A DNA stretch of 32,000 nt from an uncultured Actinomycetota bacterium. Lineage in GTDB: Bacteria; Actinomycetota; Actinomycetes; Mycobacteriales; Cryptosporangiaceae. Positions within the stretch are counted from its first letter, which is position 1. Every line of letters begins with the position of its first letter. The stretch spans positions 225,087 to 257,086 of the forward strand of contig CAVUMX010000003.1 in the NCBI GenBank assembly GCA_963742725.1, given 5' to 3'. A model generated the notes under the pieces. That model was not told where the DNA came from, searched no databases, and worked only from the letters and a program-made list of their open reading frames with translations. This document shows, piece after piece, positions 18,258 to 30,257 of the stretch. The translations under genes were made by a program, and so were the position numbers.

Positions 18258-19548
18258 GGCGGTCCTCCTCGCCACGCCGCTGCAGGGGAAGCGCGGGCAT
18301 CGTGCCAGCCCGCGGATCGGGGAGCAGCCCGAGCTGCACCAGCCGGTCCACCCTGGTGAAGCGGTGCACGCCCAGGCCGGACATGTTGTACGTGATGATG
18401 AACTGGAGCCGCCGGTTGCGCCGGTTGCGCTGCAGCACGTGCCGGCCCAGCACCTGGCCGCGCCAGCCGGTGTCGGTGAACAGCGTGGCGAGGTTGTGGC
18501 TCAGCCGCGAGACGTAGTCGATCCGGGGCCGCCGCACCTGGTCGTACCGGGACAGCGCGGCGTCGATGACCGCGGCGGTGAGCCGGTCGGCGCCGGCCAG
18601 TTGCTCGCTGAGGGTCCAGGCGTCGGCGATGGCGGCGTTCATGCCCTGGCCGGCCATCGGGTGCACGCAGTGCGCGGCGTCACCGAGCAGCGCCAGGCCG
18701 GGCCGGGTCCAGGTGGGGGCATTGAACCGCCACGCGGCCAGCGCCTGGGCGCTCGCCACGCCGTCCCGCAGCCGGTCGGCGATCGGGGCGAGCGCGGGCA
18801 CGGTGCGCAGCAGCCAGCCGATCCAGACCGGCAGCCCCGGCCTGCCGATCCGCCGGAACTCGCCGCCCGGCAGCTGCACGTAGAGCCGGGCGCGGTCACC
18901 GGGCATCGGGAAGAGCAGGCGCAGGCCGTCCCTGGTGAGGTGCGCGACCACGTCGTCGCCGAGGCCGGTGACCCCGGTGAGGTCGAAGCCGATCAGGTCG
19001 TGCGGGTACCGGGTGCGCTCCACGGCGATGCCGGCGTCGGTGCGGATCCGCGAGGAGTTGCCGTCGCAGCCGACGACCAGGTGGGCGTCCACGTCGGTGC
19101 GCGCGTCCCCGTCGGCGAGCCGCACGCCGACCACCCGGCCGGCGCCGTCGCAGCGGAGCCGTTCCACCAGCACCCCGGAGCGCACCTCCACGCCGTCGCC
19201 GGGCTCGGTGCCGATCGCCGCCTTGATGTCGGCGTAGTAGTGCACCAGGCAGTGGTCGAACGGCGGCGGCAGCAACCGGTAGTCCAGCGCGCCCACCTCG
19301 ACGCCGTCGGCCGTGCGGCAGGCCAACCGCGGCGCCCGCAGCGCACCCCGGGCGGCCAGCCGCGGCAGCGCGCCGAGCCCGTCCAGGATCTGTACCGAGC
19401 GAGGCTGCAACAGCTCTCCCTTGTGGACCGGCGCGGGCACGGGCTGCTTCTCCACGAGCAGCACCCGCCGCCCCTGCCGGGCGAACGCACGGGCGGCGGT
19501 GAGCCCACCCACACCGGCGCCGCAGACCACCACGTCGTAGTCGCGCAT
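18244..19548 (-). CDS. FAD-dependent (class A flavoprotein) monooxygenase
   Basis: 434 aa from the ATG at 19548 with YDVVVCGAGVGGLTAARAFARQG (GxGxxG), GCDGNSSRIR (DG motif) and LLGDAAHCVHPMAGQGMNAAIADA (GD motif). The rest of the 724-aa track ORF is Arg-rich read-through into the cyclase gene. Confidence 0.9.
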   Translation of the reverse strand: MRDYDVVVCGAGVGGLTAARAFARQGRRVLLVEKQPVPAPVHKGELLQPRSVQILDGLGALPRLAARGALRAPRLACRTADGVEVGALDYRLLPPPFDHCLVHYYADIKAAIGTEPGDGVEVRSGVLVERLRCDGAGRVVGVRLADGDARTDVDAHLVVGCDGNSSRIRTDAGIAVERTRYPHDLIGFDLTGVTGLGDDVVAHLTRDGLRLLFPMPGDRARLYVQLPGGEFRRIGRPGLPVWIGWLLRTVPALAPIADRLRDGVASAQALAAWRFNAPTWTRPGLALLGDAAHCVHPMAGQGMNAAIADAWTLSEQLAGADRLTAAVIDAALSRYDQVRRPRIDYVSRLSHNLATLFTDTGWRGQVLGRHVLQRNRRNRRLQFIITYNMSGLGVHRFTRVDRLVQLGLLPDPRAGTMPALPLQRRGEEDRHVPH

Positions 19549-21218
19549 CACGCCGCTCCGGCGCGGTACCGGCCGAGTGCCTGGAGCGCGAACCCGTCGG
19601 CGATGTGATCGCACCAGTAGGTCAGGCCAAGGAAGTAGATGCCGACGAACGTCGCGGGCCAGCGCCCGTCCGGACGCTGCCGCGCCAGCAACCAGGCCAC
19701 CCCCGCACGGACCGCCGCCGAGCCGGCCTGCCCCGCGGCGATCAGCCCGAGCACCGCCCACGCGGTCTCCTCCACCGAGGGCGGCGCGGAGACTCCGTCG
19801 CCCCAGCCGCCGTCCTCGTGCTGGTGGGCGAGCAGCCAGTCGCGGCAGCCCACCGCGGTGGCGGTGCCGGCCAGGCCGAGCTGCCCGAGCGCGTCGAGCA
19901 CCCGCGCCGTGCCCGCGGTGTTGCCGCGGAACCAGATGTTGGCGAACGCGCCGTCGGACCGCTGCGTCCTGGCGAACCAGCGCACCGCCTTGGCCAGCGC
20001 CGGCTCGCCGGGCAAGCCGCCGGCCGCGTTTAGGCCGAGTACGGCGTGCGCGGTCATCACCGAACACGGCGAGTCCATCGAGACGCCCGCGTTGCTGGCG
20101 AAGCAGCCCCACGAGCCGTCCCGGTTCTGCATGGTGCGCAGCCAGTCGACGCCTTTTCGCAGGGCCGCCTCGTCGCCGCCGAGCTGAGCCAGCACCCCGA
20201 CCGCGCACGCGGTGTCGTCGGTGTCCGGCCAGCCCGAGGGCAGCGACCAGCCCCACCCGCCAGCGGGCGCACCGGTCGGCGGGAACGGGTCGGGGCGCTG
20301 GCAGCGGCGGATCCAGTCCGCGGTCCCGGCCAGCTCGGCGCGGTCGACACCGGCGTCGCGCAGGCCCTGCGCCACGTACATGCTCACCGAGAACTCGATG
20401 TCCCGATCGACCGGCCACGACCCGTCGGCGCGGACGGTGGCGCGTAGGTAGCGGACGTAGTCGTGGGCGAGGTCGAGCCCGACGCCGGCGCGCACCAGCC
20501 CGACGCAGACGATCGAGGCCATCAGCGCGGACTCCTCAACGCCGCCGGGACGATCCGGATCGCTGCTCTCGTACGCGTGGATGTCGGCGAGGTAGCGCAG
20601 CGCCTTCGGCTCGGCGAGCCGGTCCAGGCGGCGGCGCAGCGGGCCGGTGCGGCGGGTCCGCGCCTGCATCACACCCCACGACATCAGCCCGGGCACGGTG
20701 AACGAGAGCCGCTGGCGGAGCCGGCGCGGCAGCAGCACCAGCTCCAGCGGCATCCGGTCGATCCGGGCCGCGTCGTACAGGCCGGCCAGCGCGAGGTACT
20801 GCTGGCAGACCGCCTTGAGCGTGCACAGGGTCTTGTCCTCGACGGCGGCCATCCCACCGAACTCGCCGATCCGGGCGAGGCCCCGGGTGACCGCGAACAC
20901 CGACCGCTCCGGCTGGACCAGTTGCAGCGCGGCAACGGCGATCGCGGTGGCGTTCAGCGTGCTCGGTCCGTCTGGTGCGTCGCCCCAGCCGCCGTCCGCG
21001 GCCTGGGTCTCGCGTAACCAGCCGGCGCCGCGTACCACCAGCTCGCCGGAATCGGCCGCGAGGTGCAGCGCGATCACGGCCGATCCGGTGGACACGGCGG
21101 ACGAGGGCAGCGTGCCCTGCCACGAGCCGTCCGCACGGCGCAGGGCGAACAGCCCGTCGACCGCCGCCGCGATGCCCCGGTCCACCGTCTCGACAGCGGG
21201 TAACCGCACGCCGGTCAC
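19548..21218 (-). CDS. squalene-hopene-cyclase-family class II terpene cyclase, unusually short (556 aa)
   Basis: The GTG at 21218 forms a GTGA overlap with the SCP2 stop. DxDD motif GWPDTDDTACAV (codons at 20214-20225). Multiple QW repeats (LRETQAADGGWGD, LRTMQNRDGSWGC, ARTQRSDGAF, LLAHQHEDGGWGD, LLARQRPDGRWP). The C-terminus ...YFLGLTYWCDH..FALQALGRY parallels SHC. Confidence 0.88.
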   Translation of the reverse strand: MTGVRLPAVETVDRGIAAAVDGLFALRRADGSWQGTLPSSAVSTGSAVIALHLAADSGELVVRGAGWLRETQAADGGWGDAPDGPSTLNATAIAVAALQLVQPERSVFAVTRGLARIGEFGGMAAVEDKTLCTLKAVCQQYLALAGLYDAARIDRMPLELVLLPRRLRQRLSFTVPGLMSWGVMQARTRRTGPLRRRLDRLAEPKALRYLADIHAYESSDPDRPGGVEESALMASIVCVGLVRAGVGLDLAHDYVRYLRATVRADGSWPVDRDIEFSVSMYVAQGLRDAGVDRAELAGTADWIRRCQRPDPFPPTGAPAGGWGWSLPSGWPDTDDTACAVGVLAQLGGDEAALRKGVDWLRTMQNRDGSWGCFASNAGVSMDSPCSVMTAHAVLGLNAAGGLPGEPALAKAVRWFARTQRSDGAFANIWFRGNTAGTARVLDALGQLGLAGTATAVGCRDWLLAHQHEDGGWGDGVSAPPSVEETAWAVLGLIAAGQAGSAAVRAGVAWLLARQRPDGRWPATFVGIYFLGLTYWCDHIADGFALQALGRYRAGAA

Positions 21219-21694
21219 GCAGATCGCCCCCGCGGGTCGGCCTGCTGCTCCAGCCGCGCCTCGACCGCGCAGTTCTCGCCCGATCCAGGACCGGTTGTCT
21301 CGCCGCGCTTGAGCGCCTTCTTGTACCGGTTGAACAGCGAGCGCATCAGCAGCAGCTTCGGCATCGACGGCGCCTTGCGGATGTCCAGCAGCCCGCTCAC
21401 GATCGCCTCCCGACCGCCCAGCTCGCCGCTGGTGAGGCGGTGCAGGGTGAGCGGTTCGGTGCGAATCACGATGTCGGCCTGCTCGTACGGGATCGCACCA
21501 GGCTCGATCGCGCGACGGTCCCGCCCCACTGTGAGCAGGTACGGGGTGGGCTCCGGGCCGCCGGTCTGGAACTCGTACAGCACGGTGAGCGCGCCACCCG
21601 CCAGCCGCTGCGCCAGGGTCGGGTTGCGGCGGCTCACCTCCAGCATGTCCCGTAGCTCGGCGACCACGTCCTCGATGGTCATCTCGGTGCTCAT
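21215..21694 (-). CDS. SCP2 (sterol-carrier-protein-2-like) lipid-binding domain protein
   Basis: 159 aa from the ATG at 21694, which forms an ATGA overlap with the radical SAM stop. The SCP2-like pattern is ALTVLYEFQTGG..PYLLTVGRDRRAIEPG...ADIVIRTEPLTLHRLTSGELGGREAIVSGLLDIRKAPSMPKLLLMRSLF. Confidence 0.75.
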   Translation of the reverse strand: MSTEMTIEDVVAELRDMLEVSRRNPTLAQRLAGGALTVLYEFQTGGPEPTPYLLTVGRDRRAIEPGAIPYEQADIVIRTEPLTLHRLTSGELGGREAIVSGLLDIRKAPSMPKLLLMRSLFNRYKKALKRGETTGPGSGENCAVEARLEQQADPRGRSA

Positions 21695-22872
21695 CGGATA
21701 CCTCCGTCGCGGGCGTTGTGCGAGGCCAGCGAGAGGCCATCGACCGGGATGAACACCGGCGCCGGGCCTGCGGGGGACAGGCCCGCGGCGGGCGATGCGG
21801 CCGGAAGCGCGGCCAGCAGTTCCGTGGTCGACCGCCAGTAGGTGGGGTCCATCGCGTCCGGCTGTCCGGTGTGGATGATCGAGCGGGCCAGGCAGCCCAG
21901 ATCCTCGGCGCGGGCGCGCTTGAGCAGCGGCGCCTGCCAGATGTCGACGATGCTCTGCTCGCGCAGGCTGCCGATCTTGGCGTGCACGAACGGGCAGGAG
22001 TGGATGTCGCCGTTGGGCTGCACGCTGACCATGAACCGGCCGACCTTGCAGCCGGAGCTCTTCTCGAAGCCGACCGCGTGGCCGGCGTGGTGGTGCTCGC
22101 TCCCCGGCCGGTTCAGCTCGATACCCTGCGGGCAGGCCAGGCTCTCCTGGACCGGGACGTTGATGCCGAGCGGCGCGCCGATGTCGCGTAACCGGTGCAG
22201 GGTCTTGAGGAACAGCTCCTTGCCGATGATGTCCGCGCGGCGGTCCTCGGTGCCGCCGGCGGCGCGGCCGACCATGAAGATCGGCAGCAGGATCAGCTCC
22301 TCGACGCCCTCGTCGAGCGCCCACTGGAACAGGTCCGGGATGGCCTCGTAGCTGTCCTCGGTGACCACGATCCGGACGCTGGTGCGCAGCCCCTGCCGGA
22401 CGGCGTACCGGATCGTGCCCTTGGCGCCGGCCAGCGAGCCCGCCACGCCGCGGACCGCGTCGTGCACGGCATCGTCGCGGCTGTCGATGGAGACGCCGAT
22501 CATCTCCAGGCCGGCGTCGACGAGCCGGTCGATCTTCTCGTCGCGGACGTTCAGCCCGTTGGTCAGCAGCGCGGTGTAGATGCCGAGGTCGGTCGAGTAG
22601 TCGACGAGTTCGTAGATGTCGCGCCGGGTCAGCGGTTCGCCGCCGAGGAAGGTGACGAACATCAGGCCGCTGGCGGCGAAGTCGTCCAGGACGCGTTTCG
22701 CCTCCGCGGTGTCCAGCTCGTCGGGGTCCCGCTTGCGGGCGTCCGCGAAGCAGTAGTAGCACTTCAGGTTGCAGGCTCTGGTGACGATCCACCACGCGGA
22801 GGGCGGCGCCAGGAGACTCCCCGATCTCGCCCCGTCCATGTACTCCTCGAGCCAGCTCATGCCCTCCGGCAT
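21691..22872 (-). CDS. radical SAM enzyme with C-terminal auxiliary-cluster (Twitch/partial SPASM) region
   Basis: 393 aa with the CxxxCxxC motif in TRACNLKCYYCF (codons at 22750-22773), FLGGEPL, and the C-terminal GCKVGRFMVSVQPNGDIHSCPF typical of the SPASM/Twitch beta-hairpin. There is no full CxxCx5Cx3C block. The ATG at 22872 is preceded by GGAAGGGGGG. It is not HpnH-like by my recollection of that family. Confidence 0.88.
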   Translation of the reverse strand: MPEGMSWLEEYMDGARSGSLLAPPSAWWIVTRACNLKCYYCFADARKRDPDELDTAEAKRVLDDFAASGLMFVTFLGGEPLTRRDIYELVDYSTDLGIYTALLTNGLNVRDEKIDRLVDAGLEMIGVSIDSRDDAVHDAVRGVAGSLAGAKGTIRYAVRQGLRTSVRIVVTEDSYEAIPDLFQWALDEGVEELILLPIFMVGRAAGGTEDRRADIIGKELFLKTLHRLRDIGAPLGINVPVQESLACPQGIELNRPGSEHHHAGHAVGFEKSSGCKVGRFMVSVQPNGDIHSCPFVHAKIGSLREQSIVDIWQAPLLKRARAEDLGCLARSIIHTGQPDAMDPTYWRSTTELLAALPAASPAAGLSPAGPAPVFIPVDGLSLASHNARDGGIR

Positions 22873-22912: not shown

Positions 22913-23674
22913 TCAGCGTCTGAAGATCCGGGTGCGGTAGGTCCACACCAGGTAGGCCAGCCCGAACAGGACGACCGCGTACAGCGCGCCCTGCCCGAGG
23001 TAGCGGTACACGTTGGTGACGTCGGTGAAGACCGCCGTCTTCAGGGCCTCGACGGCCGGCCAGTAGACGAGGTACTTCTCCGCCTCGGCACCGCCCCGGC
23101 CGAGCGCCATCTGGATGCCGGCGACCGCGATGATCACCATCGCCGCCTCGAACTCGCGCGGGATCAGCAGCCCGACGAGTGTGCCGAGAGCGACCCCGAT
23201 GAAGCCGATCAACAGCAGCGCCAGCGCGGTGAGCAGGACAGAGTGCACGTCCACCAGCGGCACGAAGATCGCCAGGAAGACGAGCGTCGAGATGAGCGTG
23301 ATCATCGCCAGCACCGCGAGCCGGGCCGACAGCAGCTGGTGCGGCCGGTATCCGACCAGGCGCAGCCGCCGCATCACCGCCGTGCTGCCGAGCACCGTGG
23401 TCAGCGCGGCGAACGAGCTGGTCACGCTGATGCCGAGGACGGCCAGGTAGAGCGCCTTGAACGCCCGGTCGTTCACCTGCAGTTCGGTGAATCCGTCGCC
23501 GGTGAAGACGTTCGCCGGTGCCACCTCGGTGGCGTCGCTGGTCAGGTAGCTGACCAGGAAGTACGAGGCCGGCATGAAGATCATGAACAGCACGGTCGGC
23601 CAGCGGCGCAGCAGTTCGCGCAGGAACATGCCGGTCGCGACGGGCGTGGCCCGGTGCGGAGTCGTCGTGGTCAT
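22913..23674 (-). CDS. ABC-2 type transporter permease
   Basis: 253 aa with about 6 hydrophobic segments. It is translationally coupled (ATGA at 23671-23674) to the upstream ABC ATPase, the classic ABC-2 exporter pair arrangement. Confidence 0.8.
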   Translation of the reverse strand: MTTTTPHRATPVATGMFLRELLRRWPTVLFMIFMPASYFLVSYLTSDATEVAPANVFTGDGFTELQVNDRAFKALYLAVLGISVTSSFAALTTVLGSTAVMRRLRLVGYRPHQLLSARLAVLAMITLISTLVFLAIFVPLVDVHSVLLTALALLLIGFIGVALGTLVGLLIPREFEAAMVIIAVAGIQMALGRGGAEAEKYLVYWPAVEALKTAVFTDVTNVYRYLGQGALYAVVLFGLAYLVWTYRTRIFRR

Positions 23675-24366
23675 GCGGCACCGCCCGCGACCTGGTCGGC
23701 CAGCCGGCCGCTCGCGACGACCCGGCCCTGCACCAGGTCGAGCATCGCGTCGAACCGGTCCTTCTCCGAGTGCATGTGACTCACCACCGCGACCGCGCCG
23801 CCGTCACGCCGGAACTGTTCGGCGTAGGCCCAGAACTTCAGGTAGGTGTCGTAGTCGAAGCCCTGGTAGGGCTCGTCGAGGATGAGCACGTCCGGGGTGT
23901 GCAGCAGCGAGGCGATCAGGTTCACCTTCTGCCGGGTACCGCCGGAGAGCCGGCTGACCCTGGTGCCGGCGTACTGGGTGCAGCCGAACGTCTCCATCAG
24001 CTCGCCCGCGCGGGCGGACACCTTCTCGGCGGTCAGCCCGTAACCGGCGCCGAAGAGGCGGAGCTGCTCGGCGATGGTCAGCGCGTCCAGCAGCGACGGC
24101 TCCTGCGGGCAGTAGCCGATCGAGCCGCTGACCAGGATCTCGCCTGAGTCCGGGCCGAGCAGGCCGACCAGGCATTTGAGCAGCGTGGACTTGCCCGCAC
24201 CGTTCTCGCCCTCGATGCCGACCAGGGTGCCGGCCGGTATCGAGAAGGTGACGTCGGTGAGCACCCGCCGCCGCCCGTAGCGCTTGGCCACGCCACGGAC
24301 GGAGACGGCGGGTGCCCCGGCGGCACCACGGCCGGCCGTGGGCCGAGCCTCCTCGTGCGTATGCAT
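23671..24366 (-). CDS. ABC transporter ATP-binding protein
   Basis: The ATG at 24366 is preceded by GAGAAGGAAG. Walker A GENGAGKST, signature LSGGTRQK, Walker B VLILDEP. Confidence 0.93.
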   Translation of the reverse strand: MHTHEEARPTAGRGAAGAPAVSVRGVAKRYGRRRVLTDVTFSIPAGTLVGIEGENGAGKSTLLKCLVGLLGPDSGEILVSGSIGYCPQEPSLLDALTIAEQLRLFGAGYGLTAEKVSARAGELMETFGCTQYAGTRVSRLSGGTRQKVNLIASLLHTPDVLILDEPYQGFDYDTYLKFWAYAEQFRRDGGAVAVVSHMHSEKDRFDAMLDLVQGRVVASGRLADQVAGGAA

Positions 24367-24451
24367 TCGGACTTCCTTCTCATTTGGGGTATCAATCACG
24401 CAGCCACCGTACGAGAACCGGGCGGCCACCGGTACCTGCTTCATCCGCAAT

Positions 24452-25726
24452 TCACCACGTCACCGGCACCGCCTCCGGTGCCTGCGCCGCGGTCTCGGTC
24501 AGCCAGCGCACCTCGTCGTACGGCACCGCCAGCCGCAGCTCGGGGAACCGCCGCAGCAGCGCGCCGAACCCGAGCTGCAGTTCCATCCGGGCGACCGGCG
24601 CGCCGAAGCAGAACGCCGGGCCGCTGCCGAAGGTCAGGTGCTGGTTCGCGGTGCCCCTGGTGATGTCGAACCGCTCAGCGCCGGCGAAGTGCGCGTCGTC
24701 CTGGTTGGCGGCGTGCCTGGCGACCAGCACGGTCGCGCCCGCCGGGATCAACACGCCGCCGATCTCGACGTCCGCCGTGGCGTACCGGCTGATCCCGTAC
24801 CCGTTGCCCGGCGGCGTGCGGCGCAGCATCTCCTCGGTCGCCGACTCGACCAGCGCGCCGCCGGCGAGAATGTCGTCCCGGAGCGCGGCGAACTGGTCCG
24901 GATGCCGGTGCAGCAGCAGGAAGCCCTTGCCGATCTCGGCCGCGGTCGTCTTGTAGCCGGCGACCAGCAGCGTCATCACCGTGATCCACAGCTCTTCCTC
25001 GGTGAGCCGGCCGTCTTCCTCGTCGGCCACCGCGACCAGCCCGCTGAGCAGGTCGTCCGCCGGTTCGCGGCGCTTGGCGGCACTCAGCGCCTTGGCGTAG
25101 TCGATCAGCGTGCCCGCCGCGCCCGCCCGGTCCGAGGGATCGTGGTCGCTGGAGAGCATCGTGTCCACCCAGTCGCGGAACTGCGCCTGGTCGGCGACCG
25201 GGACGCCGAGCATCGTGCAGATGACCGTGATCGGCAGCGGGTAGGCGAACGCGGCCATCAGGTCGGCCGGCGGGCCCTGCGCGGCCAGCTTCTCGACCAG
25301 GTGGTCCACAGTGGCCTGGATCCGCGGGCGCATCGCCTCGACCTGGCGCGGGGTGAACGCTCTGGCCACCAGCCGGCGCCAGCGGGTGTGCACCGGCGGG
25401 TCGGCGAACGGGTTGCCGTAGTTGCCGAACCCGATCGCGGTCTTCATCCTGGCGGCGTCGGGCCGATTGAGGTCGCGGCTGAACCGTACGTCGGACAGCA
25501 CCGCGCGCACGTCGGCGTACCGGGTGACCAGCCAGGCCCGGTCGCCGCTGGGCAGCGTCACCGTCGTGACCGGATCGTGCTCGCGCAGCCAGCCGTACTC
25601 CGCCTGGATGTCCAGCGGGTCGGCCTTGGGGAACGGGAAGCGCATCGGGCACCCTGGCCTGTTCACAGCCTCGGCGTTCGCAGGCCCTGCGTTCTCGGGC
25701 CCTGCGTTCACGGGCTCGGCGCTCAT
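24452..25726 (-). CDS. cytochrome P450 monooxygenase
   Basis: 424 aa from the ATG at 25726, which forms an ATGA overlap with the fusion-gene stop. I-helix LLVAGYKTTAAEIG, ExxR (EEMLRR), heme loop FGSGPAFCFGAPVAR. The 1250-aa track ORF is this gene plus an out-of-frame shadow of the upstream gene. Confidence 0.93.
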   Translation of the reverse strand: MSAEPVNAGPENAGPANAEAVNRPGCPMRFPFPKADPLDIQAEYGWLREHDPVTTVTLPSGDRAWLVTRYADVRAVLSDVRFSRDLNRPDAARMKTAIGFGNYGNPFADPPVHTRWRRLVARAFTPRQVEAMRPRIQATVDHLVEKLAAQGPPADLMAAFAYPLPITVICTMLGVPVADQAQFRDWVDTMLSSDHDPSDRAGAAGTLIDYAKALSAAKRREPADDLLSGLVAVADEEDGRLTEEELWITVMTLLVAGYKTTAAEIGKGFLLLHRHPDQFAALRDDILAGGALVESATEEMLRRTPPGNGYGISRYATADVEIGGVLIPAGATVLVARHAANQDDAHFAGAERFDITRGTANQHLTFGSGPAFCFGAPVARMELQLGFGALLRRFPELRLAVPYDEVRWLTETAAQAPEAVPVTW

Positions 25727-28329
25727 CGGGCGGTCCTCCGTAGTCCGGGCGCGCCGGCGGTGGCTTCGACTGCTTCGACGGCGGCGAGCAGCGCGGCGGG
25801 ATCCACCGACCGGCCCCGCTCGCCCTCGTCCTTGACGTGCCGCAGCAGCGCGCCGACGACCTGCTCGGTGGCCGTGACGCCGTGCTGTTCGAGCACGGCC
25901 TCCACACAGCTGCGGCCGGAGTGCTTGCCCAGCACGATCTGCCGGGTGGCGCCGATCCGCTCGGGCGGGTACGGCTCGTAGGTGCTCGGGTCGCGGAGCA
26001 GGCCGTCGACGTGCAGGCCGCTCTCGTGCGTGAACGCGTGGCGGCCGAGCACCGGCTTGTTCACCGGGATCGGCACGCCGGTGGCCGCCGAGACCGCGTT
26101 CGCGAGGGGTACGAACGCGGTCAGGTCCAGGCCGGTGTCGATGCCGTGCGCGACCTCCAGCGCGAGCGCCAACTCCTCCAGCGCCGCGTTGCCGGCGCGT
26201 TCGCCGACGCCGAGCACCGAGCCCTGCGCGCCGGACGCGCCGGCGCCGAGCCCGGCGAGGGAGTTGGCGGTGGCCAGCCCGAGGTCGTCGTGGCAGTGCA
26301 CGCCGACCGGGACGCTCACCGCGTCCGCCACGGTCCGCACCAGGTGGGCGAAGCCGGCCGGGTGGGCAACGCCGGCGGTGTCCGCGACGCCGACCGCGTC
26401 CGCGCCGGCGCCGATCGCGACGCCGTACATCTCCAGCAGGAAGTCCAGGTCGGTCCGGACCGCGTCCTCGGCGGCGAACACCACTGCGACGCCGGCCGAC
26501 TTGGCGTGCGCCACGGCGGTGGCCACCCGCTCCAGCAGGGCCGGCCTGGTGGTGCGGAGCTTGCGCAGGACGTGCGCGTCGGAGGTACCGACGAAGATCG
26601 CGACGCTGTCCACGCCCGCGCGCACAGCTGCGTCCACATCGGACTCCAGCGGCCTGGCGATGGCCTGGGTGACCGCGCTGAGCCCGAGGGCCGCCACCTC
26701 CCGCACCGCCGCCGCCTCCGCCGCGCTCACCGCCGGGAACCCGGCCTCGACCAGCCCGACGCCGAGCCGGTCGAGCAGGAGCGCGATCTCGACCTTCTGC
26801 GCCACGCTGAACGCCACGCCGGGCATCTGCTCGCCGTCGCGCAACGTGGTGTCCCCGAGCACCACCCGTGCGGGCAGAAGGGTGGCGGCGGGCGCCGGCT
26901 CCGGGGCGCGAAGCGAGGTGACGACCGGCGCCGGCGTGCTGCGCGACGCGGTGGTGGGCGCCGGTTCGGGGACGCTGCGCAGGAACTCGGCGAAGATCGC
27001 GTTGGCGTGCACCATGTCGGCGGCGCTGCCGTCGAACCGCAGGCGGCGGGCGAGGAACGCGCGGCGCGGGTTGGAGCGCCGGGTGAGGAAGACGTCGGCG
27101 AACACCGTGCCGGTCGTGGTGACCACCACCTCCGGCCGGTCGTCGGGTTCGTCCGCGCGGCGCAGCGTGCCGTCGCCGGAGATCAGCCGGACTTCGTGGT
27201 CGAGATCGGTGAGCACCACCCGGATCAGTCGGCGCCACGAGACCAGTCCCCGGAGTGGACGCTCCAGCGCGGACAGCCGGGCGAGCTGCGTGTCCACGTA
27301 CCGGTCGACGTCGTCGGCGGTGACCTGCTCGGGCGCGCCGTCGCGCTCGTGCCGCTGCCGCAACGCCCGCTCGGCGACGACGGTGGCCAGCGCGGCGGCG
27401 GCCGTGGCGGCCAGGCCGACGACCGCGCCCAGGCCGAGCGTGACGAACGCTCCGGCCAGCACCACACGCTCCACCAGCAGGATGCTGTGCGCCCGCAGCG
27501 CCACCACCCGCAGCGTGCCGCGCTCTGCGGCGGGCTCGGCGCCGGGCGGCTCGGCGGCGAGTGCCGCGATCAGTCCGAACGCGCGGCCGCCGGCCAGCAG
27601 TGCGATCCCGGCCAGCGCCGCCGCCGCCACCCGCGCGCCCTCGGCCGTGAGCACCGTGGCGACCGCGAGCGTGGCGGCGAGCAGGTAGCAGCCGAACGCC
27701 AGCCGCCGGGCCGCCGCGATCCCGTGCTGGACGGGCACCGTCCGGTACCCGCCGGCGCGGTCCCCGTCGACGTCGCGGATCGTGCCGACCAGATTGCTCG
27801 CGGCGTCGTGTGCCCACACCGCGGCGGCCGGCAGCAGCAGTGCCGCCGTCGGCCAGGTGGTCACCACCATCCCGCCGAACACCACGACCGCCGCGGTCAT
27901 CCCGCCGCGGACCAGGTTGCCCAGCACGCCGTGCGCCTTGAGCAGCCGGCTGTACCCGATCCCGGCCGCGAGGGCGGCGACCGCCACCAGCACCGTGCGC
28001 GGGTTGGCGACGGCGGCGAGCGCGGCGCCGCCGGCCACGCAGATCCACATCGCCGCCCAGGCCGTGCCGGCGGCCATCCGCCCGGACGGGATCGGGCGCG
28101 CGGGTTTGGCGATCCGGTCCAGCTCGCGGTCGAAGTAGTCGCCGCCGTACAGGCCGCCGATCCAGGCCAGGGTCGGCACCGCCCAGGCGACGGCGTACCG
28201 CCACGGCGCGGCCGACGCGTCAGCGAGCGCGGCCCCGGCCAGGCCGACCAGGCCGATGTAGAACACCGTGTAGGGGCGCCAGGTCTCGAGGTGGGCGAAC
28301 AGTCGGGTGGCGAGGCGTACGCGGGACAC
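25723..28329 (-). CDS. tri-domain fusion: UbiA-superfamily prenyltransferase (membrane) + SCP2-like domain + homocitrate/2-isopropylmalate/citramalate-synthase-like (DRE-TIM, HMGL-like) domain
   Basis: The GTG at 28329 lies 10 nt after the upstream TAG and follows GGGGG. aa 1-320 are hydrophobic and carry YGGDYFDRELDRIAKPARPIPSG and IRDVDGDRAGGYRTVPV. aa 335-452 read VVLTDLDHEVRLISGDG...VVVTTTGTVFADVFLTRRSNPRRAFLARRLRFDGSAADM. A Pro/Ala linker follows. aa 487-868 carry DTTLRDGEQ, HCHDDLGLATANS, GERAGNAALEE and THESGLHVDG. One uninterrupted 868-codon frame. Confidence 0.85.
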   Translation of the reverse strand: MSRVRLATRLFAHLETWRPYTVFYIGLVGLAGAALADASAAPWRYAVAWAVPTLAWIGGLYGGDYFDRELDRIAKPARPIPSGRMAAGTAWAAMWICVAGGAALAAVANPRTVLVAVAALAAGIGYSRLLKAHGVLGNLVRGGMTAAVVVFGGMVVTTWPTAALLLPAAAVWAHDAASNLVGTIRDVDGDRAGGYRTVPVQHGIAAARRLAFGCYLLAATLAVATVLTAEGARVAAAALAGIALLAGGRAFGLIAALAAEPPGAEPAAERGTLRVVALRAHSILLVERVVLAGAFVTLGLGAVVGLAATAAAALATVVAERALRQRHERDGAPEQVTADDVDRYVDTQLARLSALERPLRGLVSWRRLIRVVLTDLDHEVRLISGDGTLRRADEPDDRPEVVVTTTGTVFADVFLTRRSNPRRAFLARRLRFDGSAADMVHANAIFAEFLRSVPEPAPTTASRSTPAPVVTSLRAPEPAPAATLLPARVVLGDTTLRDGEQMPGVAFSVAQKVEIALLLDRLGVGLVEAGFPAVSAAEAAAVREVAALGLSAVTQAIARPLESDVDAAVRAGVDSVAIFVGTSDAHVLRKLRTTRPALLERVATAVAHAKSAGVAVVFAAEDAVRTDLDFLLEMYGVAIGAGADAVGVADTAGVAHPAGFAHLVRTVADAVSVPVGVHCHDDLGLATANSLAGLGAGASGAQGSVLGVGERAGNAALEELALALEVAHGIDTGLDLTAFVPLANAVSAATGVPIPVNKPVLGRHAFTHESGLHVDGLLRDPSTYEPYPPERIGATRQIVLGKHSGRSCVEAVLEQHGVTATEQVVGALLRHVKDEGERGRSVDPAALLAAVEAVEATAGAPGLRRTAR

Positions 28330-28339: not shown

Positions 28340-29473
28340 CTACTCGACGCGTTCGACCGCGGCGGTGACCATCGCGGCGAGCCGGTCCCGCGACGGCGAC
28401 GGCGCGAGCACCCCCAGCGCGTCCAGCGCGGTCCCGGCGTGCTGCGCCACGATCCTGCCGGCCTCCGCGAGCGCGTCGGTCTCCGCGAGCAGCCGCTGGA
28501 CCAGCTCGAACGTGCGCACCTCGGCGGCCTCGGAGCCGAAGCCGGCGGCCGCGTCGTCGAACGCCCGCTGCAACGACTGCCCGACCTCGGGCGGACCGAG
28601 CCGGCAGGCCACGATCAGCGGGAACGTCATGCGGCGGTTGCGGATGTCGCTGAGGAGATCCTTGCCGGCCACGCCGCTGCTGCTGCGGTACGCGAGCAGG
28701 TCATCGACCATCTGGAACGCGATCCCGAGCTGGTCGCCGTAGCTGGCCAGGGCGGCGACCTGGCGTTCGGTGCCGCCGCCGAGCAGGGCGCCCACCTCGC
28801 AGGCGCCACGGAACAGGGCGGCGGTCTTGCCACGCACCGTGTCGAAGTAGGCGTCCAGCCCGGCGCCGGCGTCGCCGCAGAGCTTCGCCTCCGAGGTCTG
28901 GCCGCGGCACAGGTCGACGCCTGCACTGGCCACGGCCCGAAGCGACGCGACGATGCGGTCGGCCGGGACACCCCGGTCGGCACACTCCGAGAGCGCCAGG
29001 AACAGCCGGAACAGCAGCGTGTCGCCGACCACGATGGCATGGTCGCGGCCGTACGCGGCGGGCACCGAGGGCCGGCCGCGGCGCATCGCGTCACCGTCGA
29101 TGATGTCGTCGTGGATCAGGCTGGCGACGTGGCCGTACTCGGCGCCCAGCGCGGCCGGCACGGCGTGCTCGACCTCGCCGCCGACCGCGGCGCACGACTC
29201 GAGCAGCAGGTACGGGCGGAACAGCTTGCCGGGCGGCCGCACCGCGTACCGGCACATCGCGTCCAACTCGTCGTCCGGGTCCCAGCCGCCGGCGATCTCT
29301 GCCTGCAGCACGCCGGGTTCGAGCGCACTCACCGTGTCGGTCAGCGCGGCGGCGTGCAGCCTGACACCGTTCAACCCGACGCCGTTCGGACCGGTGCCGT
29401 GAGTGGCTGTCTCACCTGAGCCCGTGTTGGTTAACGCGGAAATGTCCGCCGTCGCCGCAGCCGTCGAATCCAT
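28340..29473 (-). CDS. polyprenyl diphosphate synthase (third paralogue; DDxxD-type first motif)
   Basis: The ATG at 29473 is preceded by GGGGGG. Motifs SLIHDDIIDGDAMRRGRP and FQMVDDLLA. Small residues (A, S) sit at -5/-4 of the first motif. The ORF-track start at 29527 is a TTG with no ribosome-binding site. Confidence 0.88.
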   Translation of the reverse strand: MDSTAAATADISALTNTGSGETATHGTGPNGVGLNGVRLHAAALTDTVSALEPGVLQAEIAGGWDPDDELDAMCRYAVRPPGKLFRPYLLLESCAAVGGEVEHAVPAALGAEYGHVASLIHDDIIDGDAMRRGRPSVPAAYGRDHAIVVGDTLLFRLFLALSECADRGVPADRIVASLRAVASAGVDLCRGQTSEAKLCGDAGAGLDAYFDTVRGKTAALFRGACEVGALLGGGTERQVAALASYGDQLGIAFQMVDDLLAYRSSSGVAGKDLLSDIRNRRMTFPLIVACRLGPPEVGQSLQRAFDDAAAGFGSEAAEVRTFELVQRLLAETDALAEAGRIVAQHAGTALDALGVLAPSPSRDRLAAMVTAAVERVE

Positions 29474-30257
29474 CTCGACCCCCCGTAGGCCAATGAGTGT
29501 CAGAAGACTTGCCGCACAAGCCGGCAAGGGTCAAGCGACTGACAAAATATCGACAACGCCCATTGTTCATCACAGCAATGTAACTCGGATTGCGAATTCC
29601 ATTCATATTTTGCGCGACGGTATCCGTGGCCGGTTTTGGCATGATTGGCGTCACACCATGGCAGACCCTGGGTAGTCGTACGACTACCTAATGTAGCTAG
29701 AAAGGGTTCCCTGGTGGGCGGGCCCGTGCACCATGAAGATCCCATATGGCGAGACAGAAATCCCGCTCAACGGACTGTGAATAGCGTTCGTGTAGTTTGG
29801 TGATGATACGCCGGAAGTGGATACGCCCGGAATTGGCATTGATCGCGCGGTTCGCTCCGCGCGGCAGGAACGCCGCCACACTGGGTGCCGGATTCCGCCG
29901 ATATGTCGCCTAAAGCACTGCTCGGCCACTTATCGAACCGCCATCCCGGAGTGCCAGAGTAATTCGGGCAACGAATTGATCCGACCTACGGAAAACGCGC
30001 GCCCCGTTAGGCGACTCGAAACCCACTATTACCCGGAAATTCAAGCCGCCGGACGCCCGTTTGTACGGAGCATGAGTTCGGACGGTCGGCACCCGGGCCC
30101 GCTCGTCAGTTGCCCGTCGCCCCGCCGGCCACGCGTCCGAAGGGAACGGGGAACGCCGTTCCATTGCGTTGCAGGGTGTGGTCCAGTATCAACCAGTTGG
30201 TGACATTGGATGCGTGATGGGCGGGCTTGCTGGCGCGCTCGATGACGGAGGTGCGCC
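29474..30257. promoter_or_regulatory. divergent promoter/leader region between the long minus-strand operon and the carboxypeptidase gene
   Basis: About 0.78 kb with no convincing ORF and much lower G+C (hand count 30/60 for 29581-29640). It contains TTGACC and TTGTCA hexamers on the minus strand near 29528-29545, an 18-bp palindrome and a GC hairpin. I could not place the exact promoters. Confidence 0.4.
29671..29688. promoter_or_regulatory. perfect 18-bp palindrome GGTAGTCGTACGACTACC (candidate dimeric-regulator operator)
   Basis: The sequence is exactly self-complementary. It lies about 200 nt upstream of the first gene of the long operon, in the AT-rich leader. Confidence 0.35.

What the first reader, a model, noticed from the sequence alone, without database searches (positions are those of the whole stretch)
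25723..28329. One 868-codon ORF fuses a UbiA-type prenyltransferase, an SCP2 lipid-binding domain and a homocitrate/isopropylmalate-synthase-like domain
**Seen in the sequence.** A single frame has no stop or shift.
- The N-terminal ~320 aa are polytopic and carry both Asp-rich UbiA motifs, GDYFDRELDRIAKPARPIPSG (about 28084-28143) and IRDVDGDRAGGYRTVPV (about 27733-27780).
- These motifs are worded most like the O-prenylating DGGGP-synthase/chlorophyll-synthase branch, with the usual Asn replaced by Gly.
- aa ~335-452 (26974-27327) look like SCP2.
- After a Pro/Ala linker, aa 487-868 carry the LeuA/NifV/CimA signatures DTTLRDGEQ, HxHxDxGxAxAN, GERAGN and HESGxH.

**Established knowledge.** That last family performs acetyl-CoA Claisen condensation onto 2-oxo acids. 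UbiA enzymes transfer polyprenyl groups from polyprenyl diphosphates.

**Inference.** I know of no characterised enzyme with this architecture. A small hydroxy-polycarboxylate may be made and directly prenylated with the product of the synthase encoded 10 nt upstream, with SCP2 holding the lipid. Alternatively, a prenylated 2-oxo acid may be chain-extended.
Basis: partly seen in the sequence, partly recalled or inferred. Interest (0 to 1): 0.88.

Follow-up and report, generated by a model that had tools for sequence, protein, structure and literature searches.

The report
Prenyltransferase–lipid carrier–alkylmalate synthase fusion enzyme
One 868-residue actinomycete protein joins a membrane prenyltransferase, a lipid-carrier domain and an acetyl-CoA condensing enzyme inside a terpenoid antibiotic-type gene cluster, and it probably makes a lipid-tailed 2-oxo acid and extends it straight away into a new kind of head group.

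Summary
ORF 25723-28329 (- strand) is one continuous coding frame with three parts: a UbiA prenyltransferase (aa 1-330), an SCP2-fold domain (aa ~333-455; weak by Pfam, clear by predicted fold) and an intact IPMS/homocitrate-synthase-type Claisen domain (aa 487-868).

It is not an assembly artefact. Fifty-three full-length homologues (47-68% identity) occur in many actinomycete genera.

It sits in an operon with a polyprenyl synthase, P450, ABC exporter, radical SAM/SPASM enzyme, small SCP2-like protein, class II terpene cyclase, squalene-epoxidase-type flavoenzyme, MFS transporter and DXS. This is the four-gene core of the phenalinolactone/atolypene/tiancilactone meroterpenoid clusters, with extras.

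In that family a stand-alone UbiA enzyme joins the polyprenyl chain to a C3 unit, giving a 2-oxo acid. Every residue that is invariant in the fused UbiA domain is shared with the stand-alone enzymes. The Claisen domain keeps all its catalytic residues, while its four substrate-pocket positions are small or hydrophobic.

Best reading: UbiA makes a polyprenyl 2-oxo acid, SCP2 hands it over, and the Claisen domain adds acetyl-CoA to give a 2-(polyprenylmethyl)malate.

No paper I could search describes the fusion, and the product is unknown. I rate it a new variant of a known kind.

The parts
25723..28329 (-). 868-aa trifunctional ORF: UbiA prenyltransferase, SCP2-fold domain and IPMS/HCS-type Claisen condensing domain
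   Evidence: The full-length AlphaFold2 model has pLDDT 88.1 and pTM 0.74. Fifty-three full-length homologues exist.
27340..28329 (-). UbiA domain, aa 1-330: an N-terminal amphipathic helix plus 10 predicted membrane helices
   Evidence: Pfam UbiA, 102.7 bits. Helices are taken from the model. Loop charges follow the positive-inside rule. It is 43-53% identical to stand-alone UbiA enzymes of about 330 aa.
28081..28143 (-). First Asp-rich motif, G63-D64-x-x-D67-x-x-x-D71 ... R78-P-I-P-S-G-R84 (Gly replaces the usual Asn)
   Evidence: These residues are invariant in the fusion family and also in 116 stand-alone relatives.
27730..27780 (-). Second Asp-rich motif, R185-D186-x-x-G-D190
26965..27333 (-). 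SCP2-fold lipid-binding domain, aa 333-455
   Evidence: Pfam SCP2 E 1.1e-3, below the cut-off. Domain model pLDDT 93.6. The top 43 Foldseek PDB hits are all SCP2 fold. This sequence variant is found essentially only inside this fusion family among 1.84 billion representatives.
26872..26964 (-). Pro/Ala/Thr-rich flexible linker, aa 456-486
   Evidence: pLDDT is below 50 for residues 459-482. Length varies among homologues.
26092..26865 (-). HMGL-like TIM-barrel catalytic domain, aa 489-746
   Evidence: Pfam E 4e-73. Best solved relatives are N. meningitidis IPMS 3rmj, Sulfolobus HCS 6ktq and Brassica MAM synthase 6e1j.
25816..26052 (-). HCS_D2 subdomain, aa 760-838, carrying the HESGLH general-base motif
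   Evidence: Pfam E 2.2e-20. H768 and Y784 are invariant.
28340..29527 (-). Polyprenyl diphosphate synthase. Ala and Ser occupy positions -5 and -4 before the DDIIDGD motif. Chain length was not determined; C20 or longer is likely.
   Evidence: Pfam E 3.7e-53. NCBIfam best matches are IdsA/GGPPS-like, all below cut-off. Sequence. A polyprenyl synthase lies immediately upstream of the fusion in all nine loci examined.
24452..25726 (-). Cytochrome P450. Its ATG overlaps the fusion's TGA (ATGA), and a GGAGG lies 8 nt upstream.
23671..24450 (-). ABC transporter ATPase
22913..23674 (-). ABC-2 type permease
21691..22872 (-). Radical SAM/SPASM enzyme. Nearest named families are AhbD, NirJ and AhbC, all far below their cut-offs.
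   Evidence: Conserved in the type-A loci L084, L088 and the P0002 contig.
21215..21694 (-). Small 159-aa protein, probably a second, stand-alone SCP2-like protein
   Evidence: Frame plot. SCP2 is its only Pfam match: E 0.18 here and E 9e-4 for the ortholog in L084, which is 63% identical.
19548..21218 (-). Class II (squalene-hopene-cyclase-like) terpene cyclase, 556 aa, with a canonical DTDDTA motif
18244..19548 (-). Squalene-epoxidase-type FAD monooxygenase, 434 aa
16845..18275 (-). MFS transporter
   Evidence: Same position in L084.
13917..15746 (-). 1-deoxy-D-xylulose-5-phosphate synthase, an extra copy for MEP-pathway precursor supply
   Evidence: DXS, GcpE or LytB also flank the fusion in L001, L084 and L090.

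Best explanation
The ORF is a three-station enzyme in a bacterial meroterpenoid pathway.

1. The neighbouring synthase makes a polyprenyl diphosphate. It is probably C20 or longer and may be epoxidised first.
2. The membrane UbiA domain ionises it and joins it by a C-C bond to a C3 unit (phosphoenolpyruvate or pyruvate). This is what the stand-alone homologues PlaT3 and AtoD do. The product is a polyprenyl-pyruvate, that is, a lipid-tailed 2-oxo acid.
3. The tethered SCP2 domain takes up the hydrophobic tail at the cytoplasmic face and presents the 2-oxo-acid head to the C-terminal domain.
4. That IPMS/HCS-type domain condenses it with acetyl-CoA to give a 2-(polyprenylmethyl)malate. For a C20 donor this is C25H40O5 (my hand-computed formula).
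5. The flavin epoxidase and class II cyclase build the polycyclic core. The P450 and radical SAM enzyme tailor it. The ABC and MFS transporters export it.

Shown here: domain identities, intact catalytic residues, the remodelled pocket, conservation of the fusion, and the gene neighbourhood. Inferred: substrates, order of steps, the handover role of SCP2, and the product.
For: **The fusion is real and under selection**
- One continuous coding frame and 53 full-length homologues.
- Middle-domain residues R324, E328, W365, R367, T405, F414, P421, R422, D438 and F446 are invariant.

**Pathway context**
- The window operon carries polyprenyl synthase, epoxidase and class II cyclase around the UbiA gene.
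- All nine loci with a fusion have the synthase directly upstream. Eight have the epoxidase and seven or eight have the cyclase.
- These four genes are the published conserved core of atolypene, phenalinolactone, brasilicardin and tiancilactone clusters (PMC11600129).

**UbiA chemistry**
- The domain is 43-53% identical end to end to stand-alone UbiA enzymes.
- One of these, P0123 of Streptomyces sp. CB03238, lies in a synthase-UbiA-cyclase-epoxidase cluster with chloroanthranilate-type genes. That strain is a tiancilactone producer.
- PlaT3 and AtoD yield C23 and C28 products with a 2-oxo- or amino-acid tail.
- All 50-odd residues conserved in at least 95% of the fused domains are also conserved in at least 90% of 116 stand-alone enzymes. 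None is fusion-specific.

**The Claisen domain is active but retargeted**
- The nine residues probed by mutagenesis in Brassica MAM synthase are R89, D90, Q93, E227, T257, H288, H290, H388 and Y399 (PMC11532901).
- They correspond to R497, D498, Q501, E621, T651, H678, H680, H768 and Y784, all invariant.
- The four residues that set 2-oxo-acid chain preference in BjMAM1A are V182, E223, A253 and P255 (PMC8468904).
- They correspond to A577, V617, G647 and A649. These are 98-100% conserved in the fusions.
- The commonest residues at these positions in 80 ordinary IPMS/HCS/CMS-type enzymes are H, E, N and P.
- The Arg that homocitrate synthases use for the distal carboxylate of 2-oxoglutarate is V617 here.

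**Topology**
- The model has ten membrane helices. Both flanks of the last hairpin are Arg-rich. This places SCP2 and the acetyl-CoA-using domain in the cytoplasm, on the same side as the UbiA active site.

**Analogy and independent hints**
- UbiJ-SCP2, which holds polyprenyl ubiquinone intermediates for soluble enzymes, is among the best structural matches.
- A sister protein, P0055, fuses the same UbiA type directly to the class II cyclase. So fusing this UbiA type to another enzyme of the same pathway recurs.
- The only aminotransferase domain in these clusters is on a GntR-type regulator in L001. In the atolypene cluster a dedicated aminotransferase, AtoB, acts on the 2-oxo acid tail. This fits the 2-oxo acid having a different fate here.
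Against: - No biochemical data exist for any member, and no product is known.
The link to them runs through gene context and a tiancilactone-producer homologue, not a direct alignment.
- Even for PlaT3 and AtoD the C3 donor is unproven.
- Pocket size is inferred from sequence mapping, not from inspecting model coordinates. Ala at position 577 and Ala at 649 also occur in some ordinary enzymes (9 of 80 each).
- The SCP2 handover role is inferred only from fold and position.
- The ten-helix topology rests on a model and charge bias. The last two helices are separated by only one non-helical residue (G301).
- The window's cyclase has a canonical DxDD motif, unlike the characterised cyclases of this family. 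Pathway details may therefore differ.
- A 2-alkylmalate end product needs further steps that I cannot assign.
Confidence: 0.55

Rival explanations
1. Reverse order. The Claisen domain first makes a small hydroxy acid, such as citramalate from pyruvate plus acetyl-CoA or a citrate/homocitrate analogue. The UbiA domain then prenylates it on oxygen or carbon.
For: The best NCBIfam matches of the UbiA domain are O-prenylating DGGGP synthase-type and chlorophyll synthase models. The fusion brings the two activities together whichever comes first. The Claisen domain's closest relatives include archaeal citramalate/IPMS/HCS-type enzymes at 40-47% identity.
Against: All those NCBIfam matches are far below their cut-offs (for example 117 bits against 269). 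Much closer relatives are the stand-alone meroterpenoid UbiA enzymes, which work without any Claisen partner. No fusion-specific conserved residue marks a new acceptor site. The pocket positions are Ala, Val, Gly and Ala, not the residues that are commonest at these positions in ordinary enzymes. The homocitrate-type Arg is missing. A small soluble acceptor would not need a lipid-carrier domain between the two catalytic domains.
Confidence: 0.15
2. First step of a full 2-oxo-acid elongation cycle, as in leucine, methionine (MAM) or homophenylalanine (HphA) homologation. The alkylmalate is isomerised and oxidatively decarboxylated by housekeeping LeuCD/LeuB, giving a one-carbon-longer polyprenyl 2-oxo acid. 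This may happen repeatedly.
For: This is the usual fate of IPMS-type products. MAM synthase, a top structural match, works this way. It also lacks the LeuA regulatory domain, as this protein does.
Against: None of the nine clusters examined encodes an aconitase-type isomerase or an isopropylmalate-dehydrogenase-type enzyme. Housekeeping LeuCD and LeuB would have to accept a C20+ lipid substrate.
Confidence: 0.12
3. The lipid is the acyl-CoA donor, not the 2-oxo acid. A polyprenyl-derived acyl-CoA is condensed with a small 2-oxo acid, giving an alkylcitrate-like product.
For: The type-B clusters encode an AMP-dependent ligase and a KASIII-like enzyme next to the fusion.
Against: The ligase and KASIII genes are absent from the window's own cluster type. 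The family-specific substitutions fall on the positions that line the 2-oxo-acid side-chain pocket in the MAM synthase structure, not on the CoA channel.
Confidence: 0.06
4. Artefact: a frameshift, a read-through or a mis-assembly has joined separate genes.
For: High-GC genomes give long spurious ORFs in several frames.
Against: The codon-position GC signature is uniform across both junctions. The same architecture recurs in 53 independent sequences from many genera and data sources, with a conserved middle domain.
Confidence: 0.01

Closest known systems
PlaT3, AtoD and TnlT3-type UbiA prenyltransferases of bacterial perhydrophenanthrene meroterpenoid clusters (phenalinolactone, atolypene, tiancilactone, brasilicardin, longestin)
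   Same: The UbiA domain covers the same length and is 43-53% identical to stand-alone relatives (identity to PlaT3 and AtoD themselves was not measured). It shares every family-invariant residue, including the GDxxDxxxD variant, H281 and R288. It has the same neighbours: polyprenyl synthase, squalene-epoxidase-type flavoenzyme and class II cyclase.
   Different: Here the enzyme carries an extra 540 residues (SCP2 plus Claisen domain). The clusters lack the aminotransferase or tetronate-type follow-up. The window's cyclase has a canonical DTDDTA motif, not the published non-canonical xxx(E/D)(T/S)xE.
Methylthioalkylmalate synthase (MAM; PDB 6E1J) and HphA-type IPMS derivatives recruited to specialised metabolism
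   Same: An IPMS-derived Claisen enzyme with no LeuA regulatory domain. All catalytic residues are retained. The four pocket residues that set 2-oxo-acid chain preference are altered.
   Different: MAM is a soluble stand-alone plant enzyme within a full elongation cycle. Here the domain is tethered to a membrane enzyme and a lipid carrier, no cycle partners are clustered, and the presumed substrate is a C20+ lipid.
Homocitrate synthase (NifV/Lys20; PDB 6KTQ, 3IVS, 2ZTJ) and 2-isopropylmalate synthase (LeuA; PDB 3RMJ)
   Same: HMGL-like TIM barrel plus HCS_D2 subdomain, the metal ligands, and the HxSGxH base.
   Different: It scores below every NCBIfam equivalog cut-off. The 2-oxoglutarate-binding Arg is Val617. 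The commonest outgroup residues at the four pocket positions (His, Glu, Asn, Pro) are replaced by Ala, Val, Gly and Ala.
UbiJ-SCP2 of the ubiquinone biosynthesis metabolon
   Same: An SCP2 fold (Foldseek E about 3e-5, TM about 0.6). Its proposed job is to hold a polyprenyl intermediate so that soluble enzymes can act on it.
   Different: UbiJ is a separate protein in a multi-protein complex. Here the SCP2 domain is covalently inserted between the two enzymes. Sequence identity is only about 15%.

Membership tests
UbiA superfamily intramembrane prenyltransferases (PF01040) | Profile match above the curated cut-off | tested here: met
   102.7 bits against a 34.2 cut-off, aa 29-247. All 53 family members match.
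UbiA superfamily intramembrane prenyltransferases (PF01040) | Two Asp-rich motifs (NDxxDxxxD and DxxxD) at the cytoplasmic ends of TM2 and TM6 | tested here: met
   G63-D64..D67...D71 (Gly in place of Asn) and D186...D190. They are invariant and follow predicted helices 42-66 and 162-185.
UbiA superfamily intramembrane prenyltransferases (PF01040) | Polytopic fold of about nine transmembrane helices | tested here: met
   The AlphaFold2 model has ten membrane helices, nine plus one extra that returns the chain to the cytoplasm. This is a prediction only.
PlaT3/AtoD-type meroterpenoid UbiA enzymes (C-C coupling of a polyprenyl chain to a C3 unit) | Clustered with polyprenyl synthase, squalene-epoxidase-type flavoenzyme and class II cyclase | tested here: met
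   Seen in the window operon and in 7-8 of 9 homologous loci. The published core is described.
PlaT3/AtoD-type meroterpenoid UbiA enzymes (C-C coupling of a polyprenyl chain to a C3 unit) | Close sequence relationship to family members | tested here: inconclusive
   45% identity over 98% of the domain to the UbiA of the tiancilactone-type cluster in Streptomyces sp. CB03238. All invariant residues are shared with 116 stand-alone relatives. PlaT3 and AtoD sequences themselves were not available for alignment.
PlaT3/AtoD-type meroterpenoid UbiA enzymes (C-C coupling of a polyprenyl chain to a C3 unit) | The product is a polyprenyl 2-oxo acid | not testable with these tools
   Needs expression and LC-MS/NMR.
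Claisen-condensing DRE-TIM metallolyases (IPMS/HCS/CMS/MAM) | HMGL-like barrel plus HCS_D2 subdomain | tested here: met
   246.5 and 73.2 bits, both above their cut-offs.
Claisen-condensing DRE-TIM metallolyases (IPMS/HCS/CMS/MAM) | Catalytic and metal-binding residues (MAM R89, D90, Q93, E227, T257, H288, H290, H388, Y399) | tested here: met
   R497, D498, Q501, E621, T651, H678, H680, H768 and Y784 are invariant in all 53 sequences.
2-isopropylmalate synthase (LeuA) | NCBIfam cut-off, LeuA regulatory domain, and the commonest outgroup pocket residues (His, Glu, Asn, Pro) | tested here: not met
   Best score is 415 bits against a 517 cut-off. No LeuA_dimer domain is found. The pocket is A577, V617, G647 and A649.
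Homocitrate synthase (NifV/Lys20) | NCBIfam cut-off and the Arg that binds the distal carboxylate of 2-oxoglutarate | tested here: not met
   373 bits against 462.9. The Arg position (R in 6ktq) is V617, 98% conserved.
Citramalate synthase (CimA) | NCBIfam equivalog cut-off | tested here: not met
   189 bits against 450, and 134 against 950.
SCP2 sterol/lipid carrier domain (PF02036) | Profile match above the cut-off | tested here: not met
   19.7 bits against 21.3. Nineteen of 53 members match at E<0.1.
SCP2 sterol/lipid carrier domain (PF02036) | SCP2 alpha/beta fold | tested here: met
   Domain model pLDDT 93.6. The top 43 Foldseek PDB hits are all SCP2 proteins or domains, probability 1.00.
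SCP2 sterol/lipid carrier domain (PF02036) | Binds a lipid in a hydrophobic tunnel | not testable with these tools
   Model coordinates could not be inspected. Needs binding assays.

The most novel reading that the evidence does not exclude
The protein is a self-contained membrane-to-cytosol assembly line. An intramembrane prenyltransferase makes a lipid 2-oxo acid. A covalently tethered SCP2 domain lifts it out of the bilayer. A retargeted IPMS-type domain converts it to a polyprenyl- or polycyclic-alkylmalate. This would found an undescribed class of actinomycete meroterpenoids with a hydroxy-dicarboxylate head group. It would also be the first in-cis lipid-carrier handover between a UbiA enzyme and a soluble enzyme. 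As a 'Rosetta stone' fusion, it would give independent support for the view that the nascent product of PlaT3/AtoD-type enzymes is a 2-oxo acid.
Probability: 0.45. Interest if true: 0.75.

Novelty: new variant of a known kind. Interest (0 to 1): 0.62.

Why it matters
Bacterial perhydrophenanthrene meroterpenoids include brasilicardin (an immunosuppressant), phenalinolactones, tiancilactones and atolypenes. They are under active study, and the origin and nature of the unit that the UbiA enzyme attaches are still stated to be unknown.

A conserved natural fusion of this UbiA type to a 2-oxo-acid-consuming Claisen enzyme matters in three ways:
- It supports the 2-oxo-acid product by gene-fusion logic.
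- It predicts a new head-group chemistry (alkylmalate) and so a new compound family, across at least a dozen actinomycete genera.
- It offers a compact model for how a lipid intermediate made inside a membrane enzyme is passed to a soluble enzyme through a tethered SCP2 domain.

It is also a ready-made genome-mining handle: UbiA plus HMGL-like domains in one ORF.

Tried and rejected
- **Genome scan.** It returned 80 generic archaeal and bacterial LeuA/HCS loci and none of the fusions. I reused these only as an outgroup for the residue comparison.
- **Source organism.** Exact look-ups of the window protein gave no contig and no name, so the organism stays unidentified.
- **Small ORF 21215-21694 against the internal SCP2 domain.** BLASTP and hhalign found no similarity. 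A PDB sequence search gave only noise. Only weak Pfam SCP2 hits remain.
- **Stand-alone UbiA proteins with long tails (P0056-P0058).** Their tails align at only 15-18% identity to the middle domain, so they are not UbiA-SCP2 intermediates.
- **Literature.** Six full-text searches found no description of this fusion. Two key papers could not be read: de Kraker & Gershenzon 2011 and the tiancilactone discovery paper.
- **Rejected readings.** It is not a bona fide homocitrate, isopropylmalate or citramalate synthase (cut-offs and pocket residues not met). It is not a DGGGP synthase-type O-prenyltransferase (much closer C-prenylating relatives exist). It is not an assembly artefact.

Full report

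Yes. The - strand ORF 25723-28329 starts with GTG, encodes 868 aa and ends with TGA.

The window is 70-78% GC and full of long spurious ORFs, so I checked codon-position GC. Third-position GC is 0.86-1.00 in every 50-codon window from about 28314 to 25723, with the normal GC1 > GC2 pattern. The stop-free extension upstream to 28614 has the wrong signature.

The polyprenyl synthase gene ends at 28340. A GGGGG lies before the GTG. The TGA overlaps the ATG of the next gene as ATGA, with a GGAGG 8 nt upstream, which indicates translational coupling.

Pfam finds four domains:
- UbiA, aa 29-247, E 2.6e-29
- a sub-threshold SCP2, aa 366-443, 19.7 bits against 21.3
- HMGL-like, aa 489-746, E 4e-73
- HCS_D2, aa 760-838, E 2.2e-20

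**2. Is the fusion genuine?**

A search of about 5.8 billion proteins returned 53 further clusters with the same three Pfam domains. The 52 aligned are 47-68% identical to the window protein. They come from Actinomadura, Streptomyces, Kitasatospora, Amycolatopsis, Kibdelosporangium, Prauserella, Paractinoplanes, Acrocarpospora, Nocardia, Frankiaceae, Pseudonocardiaceae and soil metagenomes. Sources name them only 'UbiA family prenyltransferase' or 'isopropylmalate/homocitrate/citramalate synthase'.

The alignment has invariant residues in all three parts, including the middle domain: W365, R367, T405, F414, P421, R422, D438 and F446. A frameshift or assembly artefact is therefore excluded.

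**3. The middle domain**

By sequence it is marginal. Only 19 of 53 members hit Pfam SCP2 at E<0.1.

An AlphaFold2 model of aa 333-455, built on the family alignment, has pLDDT 93.6. Its top 43 Foldseek matches in the PDB are all SCP2-fold proteins or domains. They include AF1534, alkylsulfatase C-terminal domains, UbiJ-SCP2 and animal and yeast SCP2 (E about 1e-5 to 3e-3, TM 0.54-0.68).

An exhaustive HMMER scan of 1.84 billion representatives with this domain found only nine hits. The clear single-stretch matches lie at residues ~320-460 of proteins of 827-865 aa, which is the position of this domain in the fusion. One 538-aa protein has SCP2 plus the Claisen domain without UbiA and may be truncated.

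The full-length model has pLDDT 88.1 and pTM 0.74. Residues 459-482 form a disordered Pro/Ala linker.

**4. Neighbourhood**

On the same strand, reading downstream from 29527:

| Gene | Coordinates |
|---|---|
| Polyprenyl synthase | 29527-28340 |
| Fusion | 28329-25723 |
| P450 | 25726-24452 |
| ABC ATPase | 24450-23671 |
| ABC-2 permease | 23674-22913 |
| Radical SAM/SPASM | 22872-21691 |
| 159-aa protein | 21694-21215 |
| Class II terpene cyclase | 21218-19548 |
| Squalene-epoxidase-type FAD monooxygenase | 19548-18244 |
| MFS transporter | 18275-16845 |
| DXS | 15746-13917 |

Loci of eight homologues show the same logic:
- The synthase is directly upstream in all of them.
- The epoxidase is present in eight of nine loci and the cyclase in seven or eight.
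- MEP or mevalonate supply genes are often adjacent.

Two sub-types appear:
- **Type A** (window, Actinomadura L084, Prauserella L088, the P0002 contig): adds radical SAM/SPASM and the small protein. All but Prauserella also carry the ABC-2 exporter.
- **Type B** (Kitasatospora L003, Streptomyces L085, Nocardia L089, Frankiaceae L090, partly Kibdelosporangium L001): adds a KASIII-like protein, an AMP-dependent ligase and a MarR regulator.

No locus encodes LeuCD- or LeuB-type enzymes. The only aminotransferase domain belongs to a GntR-type regulator in L001.

**5. What the context means**

Synthase, UbiA, flavin epoxidase and class II cyclase form the published conserved core of the bacterial perhydrophenanthrene meroterpenoid clusters: atolypene, phenalinolactone, tiancilactone, brasilicardin and longestin (PMC11600129).

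In those pathways:
- The stand-alone UbiA PlaT3 acts on GGPP and adds a three-carbon 2-oxo acid. The origin of that unit is unknown (PMC11317874).
- AtoD is proposed to add three carbons, possibly from phosphoenolpyruvate, giving a ketone that host or pathway aminotransferases convert.

Searching with the UbiA domain alone found about 120 stand-alone actinomycete UbiA proteins of ~330 aa. They are 43-53% identical over 96-99% of the domain.

One of them, P0123 from Streptomyces sp. CB03238, lies in a synthase-UbiA-cyclase-epoxidase operon. That operon sits beside tryptophan halogenase, tryptophan dioxygenase and adenylation/carrier genes. CB03238 is a reported tiancilactone producer, and tiancilactones carry a chloroanthranilate.

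I aligned the 53 fused domains with 116 stand-alone proteins. Every residue conserved in at least 95% of the fusions is also conserved in at least 90% of the stand-alone set. These include H13, R18, W56, Y61, D64, D67, D71, K75, R78, R84, Y126, K131, N138, R141, D175, N179, R185, D186, D190, H281, R288, R324 and E328. No fusion-specific conserved residue exists.

The simplest reading is that the fused UbiA domain does the same chemistry, on the same acceptor, as its stand-alone relatives.

**6. The Claisen domain**

It scores best against archaeal-type IPMS/HCS/CMS models but stays below every curated cut-off (415 against 517, 396 against 485, 373 against 463, 189 against 450). It has no LeuA regulatory domain.

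The best solved relatives are N. meningitidis IPMS 3rmj, Sulfolobus HCS 6ktq and Brassica MAM synthase 6e1j.

*Catalytic residues.* Using the printed alignment to 6e1j, the nine residues probed by mutagenesis in MAM synthase map as follows. All nine are invariant in the family.

| MAM synthase | This protein |
|---|---|
| R89 | R497 |
| D90 | D498 |
| Q93 | Q501 |
| E227 | E621 |
| T257 | T651 |
| H288 | H678 |
| H290 | H680 |
| H388 | H768 |
| Y399 | Y784 |

*Pocket residues.* The four residues shown to guide 2-oxo-acid side-chain preference in BjMAM1A (PMC8468904) map as below. The fusion residues are 98-100% conserved. The outgroup is 80 ordinary enzymes.

| BjMAM1A | This protein | Commonest outgroup residue |
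|---|---|---|
| V182 | A577 | H |
| E223 | V617 | E |
| A253 | G647 | N |
| P255 | A649 | P |

V617 is also the position of the Arg that homocitrate synthases use for the distal carboxylate of 2-oxoglutarate; it is R in 6ktq. Further family-specific changes are Q555, I557, A619, G700 and L706.

The domain is therefore predicted to be catalytically competent, with a 2-oxo-acid pocket that is smaller-sided and more hydrophobic than in any primary-metabolism member.

**7. Topology**

Canonical UbiA enzymes have nine transmembrane helices. The N-terminus and both Asp-rich motifs are cytoplasmic, and the C-terminus is outside (PMC4106721).

The model here has ten membrane helices after an N-terminal amphipathic helix. 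The last two (266-300 and 302-328) form a strongly hydrophobic stretch around G301, flanked on both sides by Arg-rich segments. By the positive-inside rule this is a hairpin that returns the chain to the cytoplasm.

That placement puts SCP2 and the acetyl-CoA-dependent domain on the same side as the UbiA active site. It is a prediction. The one-residue break at G301 leaves some doubt.

**8. Mechanism I commit to (confidence about 0.55)**

1. The synthase supplies a polyprenyl diphosphate. Ala and Ser at positions -5 and -4 before DDIIDGD suggest C20 or longer, by my recollection of chain-length rules. It may be epoxidised first.
2. The UbiA domain couples it to a C3 unit to give a polyprenyl 2-oxo acid.
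3. The SCP2 domain takes the tail and presents the head.
4. The Claisen domain adds acetyl-CoA to give a 2-(polyprenylmethyl)malate.
5. The epoxidase and cyclase build the ring system.
6. The P450 and radical SAM enzyme tailor it, and the ABC and MFS transporters export it.

Supporting hints:
- UbiJ-SCP2, a top structural match, does a comparable job for polyprenyl ubiquinone intermediates.
- A sister protein, P0055, fuses the same UbiA type directly to the class II cyclase. Fusing this UbiA type to another enzyme of the same pathway therefore recurs.
- The missing aminotransferase fits the 2-oxo acid having a different fate than in the atolypene pathway.

**9. Rivals**

- **Reverse order** (a small hydroxy acid made first, then O- or C-prenylated). 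It is disfavoured by sections 5 and 6 and because a soluble acceptor would not need a lipid carrier. Confidence about 0.15.
- **A full 2-oxo-acid elongation cycle.** No isomerase or dehydrogenase is clustered in any of nine loci. Confidence about 0.12.
- **The lipid as acyl-CoA donor.** The type-B ligase and KASIII genes suggest it. But those genes are absent from the window's cluster type, and the substitutions sit on the 2-oxo-acid pocket. Confidence about 0.06.
- **Artefact.** Excluded.

**10. Comparison and novelty**

- The UbiA part behaves as a member of the PlaT3/AtoD-type group by context and shared residues. Direct alignment to those named proteins was not possible.
- The C-terminal part is a member of the Claisen-condensing DRE-TIM group. 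It fails the tests for LeuA, NifV/Lys20 and CimA. It works most like MAM synthase or HphA, which are IPMS derivatives retargeted to unusual 2-oxo acids.
- The SCP2 part is a member by fold, not by Pfam threshold.

Six full-text searches found no description of the fusion. The 2024 survey of these clusters mentions only 'UbiA prenyltransferase'. The library covers open-access papers only, so an existing report cannot be excluded.

I rate it a new variant of a known kind. The pathway family and every domain are known. The trifunctional architecture and the head-group chemistry it implies are not.

Interest is 0.62. A specialist would find it a useful surprise. It bears on the acknowledged open question of what the UbiA step makes, but it is one step in a secondary-metabolite pathway, not a new principle.

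Noticed in passing
window 18-10307 (- strand): A second, separate terpenoid gene set lies in a lower-GC stretch (0.60-0.65 against 0.70-0.78 elsewhere). It comprises LytB/IspH 18-1085, polyprenyl synthase 941-2233, SDR 3225-4049, aldehyde dehydrogenase 4063-5577, HAD hydrolase 5574-6443, a 506-aa class II cyclase-like protein 6253-7773, P450 7798-9123 and another polyprenyl synthase 9102-10307. The HAD plus class II cyclase pairing recalls bacterial drimenol or drimenyl-diphosphate systems (from memory). The GC drop suggests horizontal acquisition.
   Followed up: partly
window 21215-21694 (- strand): A 159-aa ORF lies between the radical SAM gene and the cyclase. It is 63% identical to a 134-aa protein at the same position in Actinomadura (L084 10720-11124). 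Its only Pfam match is SCP2 (E 0.18 here, E 9e-4 for the ortholog). It shows no detectable similarity to the SCP2 domain inside the fusion. It is probably a second lipid carrier serving the later steps.
   Followed up: partly
window 19548-21218 (- strand); L003, L084, L086, L087: The window's class II cyclase carries a canonical DTDDTA acid motif, and so do the Actinomadura cyclases (DTDDTS in L084, DVDDTS in L087). The tiancilactone-type cyclase in L086 has NFLDSA. The Kitasatospora cyclase next to a fusion (L003) aligns NSGNTG, with no acidic residue at all. Published cyclases of this family are described as non-canonical xxx(E/D)(T/S)xE.
   Followed up: partly
P0055 (Polymorphospora sp., 926 aa): A different fusion of the same UbiA type: the UbiA domain is joined directly to a class II cyclase with an NFLDSA motif, and there is no SCP2 or Claisen domain.
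   Followed up: no
P0178 (538 aa, metagenomic): This protein starts inside the SCP2 domain and continues through the Claisen domain with no UbiA part. It also contains a short internal duplication of the DTxRDGE motif region. It may be a contig-edge fragment or a genuinely split version.
   Followed up: no
L003, L085, L089, L090, L001 against window, L084, L088: The fusion occurs in two cluster sub-types. One has radical SAM/SPASM plus a small SCP2-like protein, usually with an ABC-2 exporter. The other has a KASIII-like protein (ACP_syn_III_C), an AMP-dependent ligase and MarR. This suggests two different downstream fates for the same intermediate.
   Followed up: partly
window 21691-22872 (- strand): The nearest named families of the radical SAM/SPASM enzyme are AhbD, NirJ and AhbC, which remove or decarboxylate carboxylic-acid side chains of tetrapyrroles (E about 1e-40, far below the cut-offs). 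This may hint at radical chemistry on the di-acid head group, or it may be only generic SPASM similarity.
   Followed up: no
window 10602-13286 (+ strand): A large hybrid protein lies between the two terpenoid gene sets. It has a LacI-type periplasmic-binding-protein domain (aa ~165-312) joined to a HisKA_3/HATPase_c histidine kinase.
   Followed up: no
window 25723-25726, 23671-23674 and 19546-19550: Successive genes of the operon overlap by 1-4 nt (for example ATGA), which indicates translational coupling along the cluster.
   Followed up: partly
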